Below are positions 40,965 to 44,100 of a DNA stretch of 64,000 bases, piece after piece. Both the position numbers and the translations under genes were made by a program. The DNA is taken from contig OZ024763.1 in the NCBI GenBank assembly GCA_964016885.1, forward strand, positions 19,406,001 to 19,470,000. The letters are read 5' to 3'. The notes under the pieces are model-generated. The model was not told the origin of the DNA, did no database searches, and was given only the letters and a program-made list of their open reading frames with translations. The number at the start of each line of letters is the position of its first letter. Positions within the stretch are counted from its first letter, which is position 1. Origin of the DNA: Eledone cirrhosa (lineage: Eukaryota).

Positions 40965-41129
40965 CTATCTTCCGGCCTCTCTAGAGAATCGTAAAAGCAC
41001 ATATCGTTATATGCTTTTTCTATGAAAATTAGTAGTGGGCAGACCAATTTGCATAGAGTGTGAGTAAGGACCGGTTCAACGGAGACGATAAAAACAAATA
41101 ACGAAACGAAATTAAATTTCGTTTCGTTT
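40965..41129 (-). repeat. Inverted partial copy of the 467-bp unit
   Basis: Reverse complement of aaacgaaacgaaatttaatttcg...gccggaagatag (about 41453-41617). Confidence 0.95.
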
Positions 41130-41146
41130 ATAGGTAAATTTCGTTT

Positions 41147-44100
41147 ATAGGTAAATATTGCTGATGAGTTGTAACAACAACGAAACTAGTTCAATATTCC
41201 TTGTCTGGCTTTCTGGAGAATAGAGGAAAGGTGTTTCCTCAAAAACCAGTATGACTCTAAAAACCGGTTTGTCTGTGTGTTTACATACAGAATAGCTGGC
41301 CACTCACAGTAAAGTGACCAGTGAAAAAACTTGGTACATCTACATATGTATACGTGTGTGTATTCATATACATACTAGTATTTCAGTATACATATATGGA
41401 TGTACATCTTTAACTTAATTGTTTAAGCGTCAGTCATACAAAAGTGAGTTACAAACGAAACGAAATTTAATTTCGTTTCGTTATTTGTTTTTATCGTCTC
41501 CGTTGAACCGGTACTTACTCACACTCTATGCAAATTGGTCTGCCCACTACTAATTTTCATAGAAAAAGCATATAACGATATGTGCTTTTACGATTCTCTA
41601 GAGAGGCCGGAAGATAGGTAAATATTGCTGATGAGTTGTAACAACAACGAAACTAGTTCAATATTCCTTGTCTGGCTTTCTGGAGAATAGAGGAAAGGTG
41701 TTTCCTCAAAAACCAGTATGACTCTAAAAACCGGTTTGTCTGTGTGTTTACATACAGAATAGCTGGCCACTCACAGTAAAGTGACCAGTGAAAAAACTTG
41801 GTACATCTACATATGTATACGTGTGTGTATTCATATACATACTAGTATTTCAGTATACATATATGGATGTACATCTTTAACTTAATTGTTTAAGCGTCAG
41901 TCATACAAAAGTGAGTTACAAACGAAACGAAATTTAATTTCGTTTCGTTATTTGTTTTTATCGTCTCCGTTGAACCGGTACTTACTCACACTCTATGCAA
42001 ATTGGTCTGCCCACTACTAATTTTCATAGAAAAAGCATATAACGATATGTGCTTTTACGATTCTCTAGAGAGGCCGGAAGATAGGTAAATATTGCTGATG
42101 AGTTGTAACAACAACGAAACTAGTTCAATATTCCTTGTCTGGCTTTCTGGAGAATAGAGGAAAGGTGTTTCCTCAAAAACCAGTATGACTCTAAAAACCG
42201 GTTTGTCTGTGTGTTTACATACAGAATAGCTGGCCACTCACAGTAAAGTGACCAGTGAAAAAACTTGGTACATCTACATATGTATACGTGTGTGTATTCA
42301 TATACATACTAGTATTTCAGTATACATATATGGATGTACATCTTTAACTTAATTGTTTAAGCGTCAGTCATACAAAAGTGAGTTACAAACGAAACGAAAT
42401 TTAATTTCGTTTCGTTATTTGTTTTTATCGTCTCCGTTGAACCGGTACTTACTCACACTCTATGCAAATTGGTCTGCCCACTACTAATTTTCATAGAAAA
42501 AGCATATAACGATATGTGCTTTTACGATTCTCTAGAGAGGCCGGAAGATAGGTAAATATTGCTGATGAGTTGTAACAACAACGAAACTAGTTCAATATTC
42601 CTTGTCTGGCTTTCTGGAGAATAGAGGAAAGGTGTTTCCTCAAAAACCAGTATGACTCTAAAAACCGGTTTGTCTGTGTGTTTACATACAGAATAGCTGG
42701 CCACTCACAGTAAAGTGACCAGTGAAAAAACTTGGTACATCTACATATGTATACGTGTGTGTATTCATATACATACTAGTATTTCAGTATACATATATGG
42801 ATGTACATCTTTAACTTAATTGTTTAAGCGTCAGTCATACAAAAGTGAGTTACAAACGAAACGAAATTTAATTTCGTTTCGTTATTTGTTTTTATCGTCT
42901 CCGTTGAACCGGTACTTACTCACACTCTATGCAAATTGGTCTGCCCACTACTAATTTTCATAGAAAAAGCATATAACGATATGTGCTTTTACGATTCTCT
43001 AGAGAGGCCGGAAGATAGGTAAATATTGCTGATGAGTTGTAACAACAACGAAACTAGTTCAATATTCCTTGTCTGGCTTTCTGGAGAATAGAGGAAAGGT
43101 GTTTCCTCAAAAACCAGTATGACTCTAAAAACCGGTTTGTCTGTGTGTTTACATACAGAATAGCTGGCCACTCACAGTAAAGTGACCAGTGAAAAAACTT
43201 GGTACATCTACATATGTATACGTGTGTGTATTCATATACATACTAGTATTTCAGTATACATATATGGATGTACATCTTTAACTTAATTGTTTAAGCGTCA
43301 GTCATACAAAAGTGAGTTACAAACGAAACGAAATTTAATTTCGTTTCGTTATTTGTTTTTATCGTCTCCGTTGAACCGGTACTTACTCACACTCTATGCA
43401 AATTGGTCTGCCCACTACTAATTTTCATAGAAAAAGCATATAACGATATGTGCTTTTACGATTCTCTAGAGAGGCCGGAAGATAGGTAAATATTGCTGAT
43501 GAGTTGTAACAACAACGAAACTAGTTCAATATTCCTTGTCTGGCTTTCTGGAGAATAGAGGAAAGGTGTTTCCTCAAAAACCAGTATGACTCTAAAAACC
43601 GGTTTGTCTGTGTGTTTACATACAGAATAGCTGGCCACTCACAGTAAAGTGACCAGTGAAAAAACTTGGTACATCTACATATGTATACGTGTGTGTATTC
43701 ATATACATACTAGTATTTCAGTATACATATATGGATGTACATCTTTAACTTAACTTAATTGTTTAAGCGTCAGTCATACAAAAGTGAGTTACAAACGAAA
43801 CGAAATTTAATTTCGTTTCGTTATTTGTTTTTATCGTCTCCGTTGAACCGGTACTTACTCACACTCTATGCAAATTGGTCTGCCCACTACTAATTTTCAT
43901 AGAAAAAGCATATAACGATATGTGCTTTTACGATTCTCTAGAGAGGCCGGAAGATAGGTAAATATTGCTGATGAGTTGTAACAACAACGAAACTAGTTCA
44001 ATATTCCTTGTCTGGCTTTCTGGAGAATAGAGGAAAGGTGTTTCCTCAAAAACCAGTATGACTCTAAAAACCGGTTTGTCTGTGTGTTTACATACAGAAT

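What the first reader, a model, noticed from the sequence alone, without database searches (positions are those of the whole stretch)
40965..41160. Inverted leader with a template-switch scar at the array 5' end
Seen: a reverse-complement piece of the unit ends in the aacgaaacgaaatt-t-aatttcgtttcgtt hairpin. It then stutters (ataggtaaat-ttcgttt-ataggtaaat) and resumes forward just upstream of the first hammerhead. Known: inverted partial pLTRs at 5' ends are typical of Penelope-like insertions. Inference: the array was founded by PLE-type retrotransposition rather than only by DNA slippage.
Basis: partly seen in the sequence, partly recalled or inferred. Interest (0 to 1): 0.7.

Follow-up and report, generated by a model that had tools for sequence, protein, structure and literature searches.

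The report
Joint of a two-armed retrozyme insertion
This inverted stretch is most likely the inner end of a second, back-to-back arm of a repeat carrying a predicted self-cutting RNA motif, clipped by an assembly gap; most copies examined in this genome have the same two-armed shape, which likely forms when a Penelope-type jumping-gene enzyme copies one RNA from both ends of a DNA cut and the two copies are joined, here with a short stutter.

Summary
In detail: 40965-41129 is the reverse complement of a 467-bp hammerhead unit (164/165 identical), followed by a 17-bp stutter and a 27.5-unit array. It is probably not a short 'leader' but the inner end of a second arm, cut off by the 200-N gap. 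In the same genome 28 of 36 fetched loci are head-to-head arrays. In 26 of the 28, the outer ends are two fixed 3' ends about 70 nt apart, nearly always in (TA)n: the Penelope 'tail' footprint. Inner joints are variable and enriched for microhomology, and 6 of 39 carry templated stutters like this one. The hairpin is not a joint hotspot. Both arms share one locus haplotype, which fits one RNA template, probably a circle, primed from both cut strands. Read support for this exact joint is untested, and the helper element was not found. This array is a mosaic of two haplotypes, and a contig on another scaffold starts at the complementary base, so the missing arm may lie there. The scan already reported the family-level pattern on other DNA of this genome.

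The parts
40765..40964 (.). 200-N scaffold gap; hides the rest of the inverted arm
   Evidence: the sequence left of the gap is neither unit nor (TA)n
40965..41129 (-). Inner 165 bp of the inverted arm (unit u307-467 + u1-4)
   Evidence: 164/165 identity; diagonal mapping
41100..41128 (.). Perfect 14-bp-arm hairpin (unit u308-336); in each unit it lies between the two fixed 3' ends, i.e. in the 'tail'
   Evidence: ends at u274-279 and u348
41122..41155 (+). 17-bp direct repeat spanning the joint; net templated insert 41130-41146 (+u1-10, then TTCGTTT)
   Evidence: unique in the assembly
41147..50496 (+). Forward arm, units 1-20, haplotype A (most units identical to those of the gap-flanked array on G000 C8)
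50497..54010 (+). Forward arm, units 21-28, carrying two linked variants (u82 G, u193 C) of another lineage; ends at about u245, a non-canonical end, in (TA)n
41154..41198 (+). First type I hammerhead: stem I u8-14/u46-52, core CUGAUGA at 41161, palindromic AACUAGUU stem III, predicted cut after u45 (41191)
   Evidence: Rfam Hammerhead_HH9 33.3 bits, E 1.7e-6, below the gathering score of 52; fold; compensatory U23A/A34U pair in a subfamily
41420..41425 (+). Short-end site (u274-279) in unit 1: where one arm of genomic copies ends
   Evidence: loose end at 41425 into (TA)n in run X1 contigs
41494..41494 (+). Long-end site (u348) in unit 1: where the other arm ends
   Evidence: 2,209 exact ends into (TA)n, control 0; loose ends at 41494 and 41088 in run X1 contigs
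54006..58068 (.). (TA)n microsatellite flanking the array's right end

Best explanation
The finding is most likely the inner joint of a two-armed, head-to-head insertion of a non-coding hammerhead retrozyme, likely made by a Penelope-like element's reverse transcriptase and endonuclease, with most of the left arm likely lost at the assembly gap. SHOWN: the family inserts as two back-to-back arms; their outer ends are two fixed 3' sites (u348 and u274-279) in (TA)n; their inner ends vary; both arms share a locus haplotype; joints carry microhomology and sometimes templated stutters. INFERRED: (1) a PLE endonuclease makes a staggered cut of about 11-13 nt in (TA)n; (2) both 3' ends prime reverse transcription on one RNA at the two internal sites flanking the hairpin; (3) the RNA is probably a circle, so each cDNA can run over many units; (4) here one cDNA stopped at u307 and the other at u1 and they were end-joined; (5) a first attempt copied 10 nt, dissociated, re-primed on TAAAT in the hairpin arm, copied TTCGTTT and slipped along the TTTCG repeat back to the joint, giving the 17-nt insert, by polymerase theta or by the RT itself (not distinguishable here). 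Odds: two-arm dual-priming joint about 0.8; circular template about 0.55; polymerase theta rather than RT for the stutter about 0.5.
For: 28 of 36 loci fetched from the best hits are head-to-head; 26 of 28 have one end at u346-348 and one at u271-280. On the first 122 Mb of C1, 41 of 68 short ends have an outward-facing long end within 25 kb, against about 2.7 by chance. A gapless locus with 9 + 29 hammerheads, one haplotype throughout, has the size and shape expected here. Either arm can be the longer (L100/101 against L104), so neither is a fold-back copy of the other. The left arm's own right arm is the closest or tied in 31 of 33 loci (median distance 0 against 2.9%). Microhomology of 2 nt or more in 15 of 25 clean joints against 17.9% by chance (p = 3e-6); templated inserts in 6 of 39 joints, this one included. 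13-bp target duplication at L039. A>G makes up 11 of 26 locus-fixed private variants against 22 of 183 singletons (Fisher p = 4.5e-4), as expected if edited RNA was the template. 0 of 78 inner ends lie at the predicted ribozyme cut and 0 of 382 units have indels there. A PLE protein cleaves and extends both target strands and starts at two internal RNA sites that define the tail (PMC11167929).
Against: No read-level support for this exact joint was obtained; one search lists no contig bridging it (18 of 1,103 pieces shown). The helper PLE was not identified: no shared sequence in 47 GIY-YIG loci or, in the part of the output seen, downstream of 30 copies of a young PLE. This array breaks the one-haplotype rule (units 21-28 differ) and its right end is at about u245, not at a fixed site. 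A>G against T>C among fixed variants is 11:4, only p = 0.054, and three of the 11 lie in one locus. 'Private' means private among 54 sampled insertions out of thousands. Some loci have heterogeneous or periodic units (L034, L046/L137, L058), which a monomer circle alone does not explain. Gene conversion between inverted arms could also make arms alike. 7 of 36 loci are single-armed. The loci were chosen as best hits, so they are young and long.
Confidence: 0.8

Rival explanations
1. L1-type twin priming: the inverted piece is complete at 165 bp; a second primer invaded the RNA next to where the first cDNA stopped, so its outer end (u4) abuts the forward start (u1) with a 4-nt overlap.
For: The gap edge falls at u4 and the forward arm starts at u1. 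This is the 1-10 bp duplication geometry described for L1 inversions (PMC11702581 passages); a chance of roughly 2%.
Against: It needs the contig to end exactly at the insertion boundary with no flank. 26 of 28 two-armed loci have fixed outer ends instead. A contig on C8 begins after a 200-N gap at u5, the exact complement of this break, with the same haplotype and a canonical short end.
Confidence: 0.05
2. Assembly or read artefact: a fold-back chimeric read at a contig end made the inversion and the stutter.
For: The piece sits at a contig end, has one private mismatch, and the array is a haplotype mosaic that may include a misjoin. Read support is untested.
Against: A fold-back would mirror the adjacent sequence (u1 onward); this piece starts 306 nt out of phase. 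The same architecture and similar stutters occur in gapless loci (L031, L038, L041, L068, L115).
Confidence: 0.07
3. Single priming followed by fold-back: one RT copied the RNA, stalled at the hairpin and switched onto its own cDNA, or a later DNA-level inversion formed at the hairpin.
For: The inverted arm stops one base past a perfect hairpin, and the stutter reuses hairpin sequence. Two loci have joints inside another palindrome of the unit (L036, L137). Shared haplotypes in the two arms fit copying of one arm from the other.
Against: Joints are not enriched at the hairpin (10 of 78, p = 0.11), and the two inner ends are usually far out of phase (median 89 nt). Either arm can be many units longer than the other. 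A fold-back copy has no reason to end at a second fixed site 70 nt away.
Confidence: 0.08

Closest known systems
Penelope-like element insertions with an inverted 5'-truncated copy and a 'tail' (Craig et al. 2021, PMC8557442, passages)
   Same: Inverted 5'-truncated copy adjacent to the 5' end, an extension present at only one end, partial tandems, (TA)n preference.
   Different: No ORF; the tail is about 70 nt rather than 30-40; both arms are multimers of a 467-bp unit, up to about 30 units long.
Poseidon PAc in vitro (Frangieh et al. 2024, PMC11167929, parts 1-2 of 4)
   Same: Two internal RT start sites that define the tail; both target strands cleaved and extended; AT-rich targets; ribozyme cleavage not needed for insertion.
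   Different: Shown there on a linear RNA of an autonomous element. The parts read do not explain inverted arms or describe their joints. Here the evidence is genomic only.
Metazoan non-LTR retrozymes (Cervera and de la Pena 2020, PMC7229834, passages; review PMC7761336, passages; Li et al. bioRxiv 10.64898/2026.07.22.740005, parts 1-3 of 5)
   Same: Non-coding AT-rich tandem unit, one type I hammerhead per unit with a one-base-pair palindromic stem III like axolotl HHR_Amex1, strongly self-paired (z = -9.6); PLEs proposed as helpers and circles as templates.
   Different: The unit is somewhat longer than 170-400 nt. The main text of PMC7229834 has no occurrence of 'inverted' or 'microsatellite'. 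The 2026 preprint also considers local amplification of a pLTR by unequal crossover. Expression, cleavage and circles are untested here.
LINE-1 twin priming (PMC11702581, passages)
   Same: Both target ends are extended by RT, and the two cDNAs are end-joined with microhomology.
   Different: In L1 the second primer lands next to the end of the first cDNA, so the arms are non-overlapping pieces of the RNA. Here both arms start at fixed sites 70 nt apart and copy the same sequence.
Polymerase-theta templated insertions (review PMC12426944, passages)
   Same: Short insert (usually under 25 bp) copied from the flanks of the joint by dissociation and re-annealing, sometimes iterated.
   Different: The enzyme cannot be identified from sequence; two inserts here are 72 and 84 nt; RT template switching could leave the same scar.

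Membership tests
Non-LTR retrozyme | Head-to-tail units of a few hundred bp, each with a type I hammerhead | tested here: met
   467 bp x 27.5; core in all 28 units; Rfam HH9 E 7e-8, but below the gathering score
Non-LTR retrozyme | Dispersed copies without coding capacity, LTR, PBS or PPT | tested here: inconclusive
   Dispersal shown; no protein-like ORF of 200 aa or more overlapped units in 20 loci; PBS/PPT not searched
Non-LTR retrozyme | Highly self-paired monomer | tested here: met
   -154 kcal/mol, z = -9.55, 0 of 100 shuffles as stable
Non-LTR retrozyme | Self-cleavage and accumulation of circular RNA | not testable with these tools
   No RNA holder listed
PLE-type insertion footprint | Inverted 5'-truncated copy at the 5' end | tested here: met
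   28 of 36 loci; in the window only the inner 165 bp is visible
PLE-type insertion footprint | Tail: two fixed 3' ends, the extension at one end only | tested here: met
   Family level: 26 of 28 loci; 41 of 68 genome-wide pairs. At this locus neither canonical end is visible (left in the gap, right at about u245)
PLE-type insertion footprint | AT-rich or microsatellite targets | tested here: met
PLE-type insertion footprint | Sequence shared with the pLTR of an autonomous PLE | tested here: inconclusive
   None in 47 GIY-YIG loci, but only 150 of 10,595 candidates were scored
Autonomous Penelope-like element | RT plus GIY-YIG ORF | tested here: not met
   The insertions consist only of the non-coding unit; RT + GIY-YIG ORFs exist elsewhere in the genome
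L1-type twin-priming inversion | [quoted passage not shown] | tested here: not met
   Family level: outer ends fixed at u348 and u274-279 wherever the inner ends lie. The u4/u1 coincidence in the window lies at a gap edge
Polymerase-theta templated insertion | Insert copied from sequence flanking the joint, primed by microhomology | tested here: met
   +u1-10, then a 12-nt match including TAAAT to the hairpin arm
Polymerase-theta templated insertion | Dependence on POLQ | not testable with these tools
   Needs a transposition assay in POLQ-null cells

The most novel reading that the evidence does not exclude
Every two-armed insertion records one circular ribozyme RNA, sometimes A-to-I edited, copied round and round by a Penelope RT dimer from both strands of one staggered cut, started at two fixed sites either side of a hairpin. 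The two cDNAs are then sealed head-to-head by host microhomology-mediated end joining, whose stutter is the feature seen here. This would give one mechanism for the unexplained inverted copy and tail of Penelope elements and for the multimeric arrays of retrozymes.
Probability: 0.45. Interest if true: 0.75.

Novelty: new variant of a known kind. Interest (0 to 1): 0.52.

Why it matters
PMC8557442 names the formation of tandem/inverted PLE structures as still to be understood, and PMC7229834 proposes, in the passages read, reverse transcription of retrozyme circles by PLEs without showing it. A family with more than 2,200 exact long ends, base-precise start sites, a hairpin between them and many young joints gives a ready substrate: a 467-nt RNA, a (TA)n target and exact predictions. 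The joint in this window adds the last step, how the two cDNAs are sealed. Taken alone it is one ordinary example among many, at a poorly assembled spot.

Tried and rejected
Whole-window self-BLAST timed out. Rfam at gathering thresholds gave 0 hits; the miRNA, sraA and tmRNA hits at E <= 1 are below cut-off hairpin matches and were ignored. A DNA search with a 121-bp tail piece returned nothing because common words are skipped; it is uninformative. No RNA holder was listed. Runs X4 and X5, filed under other organisms, hold the unit at depth about 10; not used as evidence of horizontal transfer, since cross-contamination is as likely. X22 matched only the hairpin with foreign flanks. cannot show presence or absence of the joint. 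Hairpin as joint hotspot: rejected (p = 0.11). Joints at the ribozyme cut: none (0 of 78, 1.8 expected). A cluster of inner ends at u460-17 (10 of 78 against 4.2, p = 0.009) was chosen after looking and includes this locus; weak. Three apparent long inserts (L058, L103, L137) were method artefacts (a divergent unit, an internal deletion, a palindromic centre) and were not counted; L107 and L109 were unresolved; L048 is complex. One search left out the window, L036, L048, L100, L101, L104 and L137. One search dropped 4 short ends beyond the range of the long-end list and merged overlapping matches. Helper search: weak 30-nt matches in L122/L127/L135 (E 0.25, antisense to the ORF) were judged chance; PLEs beside retrozymes in L115, L119, L130 and L131 are neighbours sharing (TA)n targets. 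The reverse-strand count is inflated by overlapping matches and was not used as a number. Not in print: no paper holds both 'retrozyme' and 'head-to-head'; searches listed nothing describing two-armed retrozyme arrays by title or abstract start. Cervera and de la Pena 2014, Arkhipova 2006 and Ostertag and Kazazian 2001 were not read. No supplements were seen; those of PMC7229834 (Fig. S9 model), PMC11167929 (Fig. S2) and the bioRxiv preprint may bear on novelty.

Full report
Observation. With u1 = 41147, the window holds 27.5 copies of a 467-bp unit, 99% alike, from 41147 to about 54010. Left of it, 40965-41129 is the reverse complement of u307-467 plus u1-4, with 164 of 165 bases identical. 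It crosses the perfect hairpin at 41100-41128 and stops one base beyond. Then come +u1-10, TTCGTTT and the array start, together a 17-bp direct repeat. That stutter is unique in the 3.0-Gb assembly. The left edge of the piece is the edge of a 200-N gap (40765-40964). Each unit carries a type I hammerhead (Rfam HH9, E 7e-8, below the curated cut-off) with a palindromic one-pair stem III; a subfamily carries a compensatory change in stem II. The unit folds far better than shuffles (z = -9.6).

Other copies. A search of the genome gave 238 matches, a lower bound. I fetched 36 loci from the listed best hits (one completed). 28 are head-to-head two-armed arrays, 7 are single-armed and 1 is cut by a gap. 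In 26 of the 28, one outer end is at u346-348 and the other at u271-280, and both read outward into (TA)n except at L039. So both outer ends are 3' ends of the RNA, about 70 nt apart, with the hairpin between them. The long end occurs 2,209 times exactly (control 0). On the first 122 Mb of C1, 43 of 68 short ends have a long end within 25 kb, 41 of them facing outward, against about 2.7 by chance. Contigs of run X1 show loose ends into (TA)n at the same sites; this run may be the assembly's own sample. At L039, outside (TA)n, the ends are flanked by a 13-bp target duplication; four imperfect microsatellites hint at 10-13 bp (read by eye). Arms range from under 50 bp (L115) to about 31 units, and either arm can be the longer. 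A gapless locus with 9 + 29 hammerheads and one haplotype is a full-length counterpart of this one.

Joints. Of 41 joints, 39 were resolved. 25 are clean; 15 of these have 2-5 nt of microhomology, against 17.9% for random joins (p = 3e-6). 4 have 1-3 extra bases. 6 have templated inserts: the window (17 nt), L031 (14), L038 (13), L041 (72, a duplication across the joint), L068 (84) and L115 (6). 3 were method artefacts and 1 is complex. Inner ends are spread over the unit: 10 of 78 in the hairpin (6.5 expected, p = 0.11) and 0 of 78 at the predicted ribozyme cut. The window's insert can be written as two slips: re-priming on TAAAT in the hairpin arm, then a 5-nt slip along the TTTCG repeat (sequence; inference). 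This matches the description of polymerase-theta templated insertions (PMC12426944, passages), but RT switching during L1 twin priming leaves similar scars (PMC11702581, passages).

One template. In 31 of 33 two-armed loci the left arm's closest right arm is its own or a tie (median distance 0 against 2.9%). 17 variants private to a locus are fixed in both arms of 13 loci. No indel lies at the predicted cut in 382 units. A variant fixed in up to 20 units of two arms needs a single-unit bottleneck, which a circular monomer supplies. Gene conversion, or inheritance from unsampled parents, weakens the per-locus argument, and periodic arrays (L034, L046/L137) show dimer templates or later DNA duplication.

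This locus. Units 1-20 are haplotype A. Units 21-28 carry u82 G and u193 C, two variants fixed in other loci (286 matches for u82 G genome-wide), and the right end is at about u245. A contig on C8 begins after a 200-N gap at u5, the exact complement of the window's break at u4. It carries about 21.6 haplotype-A units and ends at the canonical short end. For one such comparison the chance is about 1 in 900; it was the only other gap-flanked array end among the first 36 loci. I infer that one contig was cut during scaffolding and that the C8 array is the missing arm, possibly with a misjoin or old recombination near 50,497. This is untested. It also removes the apparent L1-type geometry (u4 next to u1), which would otherwise need a contig ending exactly at an insertion boundary.

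Mechanism and comparison. An inverted 5'-truncated copy, a tail at one end and (TA)n targets are described PLE features (PMC8557442, passages). A purified PLE protein cleaves and extends both strands and starts at two internal sites that define the tail (PMC11167929, parts 1-2 of 4). Retrozyme papers propose PLE helpers and circle-templated multimeric cDNA (PMC7229834 and PMC7761336, passages; bioRxiv 10.64898/2026.07.22.740005, parts 1-3 of 5). The best reading joins these: both strands of one cut prime on one RNA, and the cDNAs are end-joined. The genome has intact-looking RT + GIY-YIG ORFs, and tiny two-armed remnants of one such family lie in this window, but no helper sharing sequence with the unit was found. 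About 39,000 hammerheads of this class exist, and 6 of 11 loci of related families fetched also show minus-then-plus orientation.

Verdict. The feature is a real junction in the assembly and typical of its family. The element is a retrozyme by structure; the insertion footprint is a PLE one. Two-armed multimeric retrozyme arrays were not found in my searches, but this scan has reported them repeatedly on other pieces of this genome. I reached the two-arm reading before those look-ups; they are not independent support. Interest 0.52.

Noticed in passing
window 50497-54010: The outer 7.5 units switch to a haplotype (u82 G, u193 C) fixed in other loci, and the array ends at non-canonical u245: misjoin, ectopic recombination, or conversion followed by local expansion.
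   Followed up: partly
G000:C8:12595376-12605457 (L032, L139, L033): An array of identical units starts after a 200-N gap at u5, complementary to the window's break at u4; candidate missing arm and possible scaffolding error.
   Followed up: partly
window 39364-39580 and 40263-40593: Miniature two-armed insertions of the pLTR end of an ORF-bearing PLE family (L120, 938-aa RT + GIY-YIG frame), with long and short ends about 65-70 nt apart in (TA)n (the 21-nt second arm of the first was read by eye).
   Followed up: partly
L115:783-845: Minimal two-armed retrozyme insertion of about 65 bp that still has both the long and the short end.
   Followed up: yes
L094/L138, L131, L171-L176: Related retrozyme families (about 70% identity) are also head-to-head in (TA)n; in L174 a similar hairpin precedes the long end.
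   Followed up: partly
L140-L169: A very young PLE family (many copies 100% identical over 209 aa, 758-aa frames) with a long microsatellite-built 3' region; possibly still active.
   Followed up: partly
L034; L046/L137; L038: Periodic variants along arms (period 2 at u391; period 4 block) and a variant three units from the outer end in both arms of L038, pointing to multimeric templates or later block duplication.
   Followed up: partly
L102 u382/386/387; u391 across loci: Clustered A>G changes fixed in about 20 units, and recurrent A/G at u391: possible ADAR editing scars.
   Followed up: partly
L109 and L110 (C1, 17.7 kb apart): Two insertions with the same structure and joint: a local segmental duplication.
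   Followed up: no
window 61958-62492: 84-bp-period repeat that looks like a C2H2 zinc-finger array on the minus strand (period; identification recalled, not tested).
   Followed up: no
window 7378-8438: 31-bp minisatellite, 34 copies, 95% matches.
   Followed up: no
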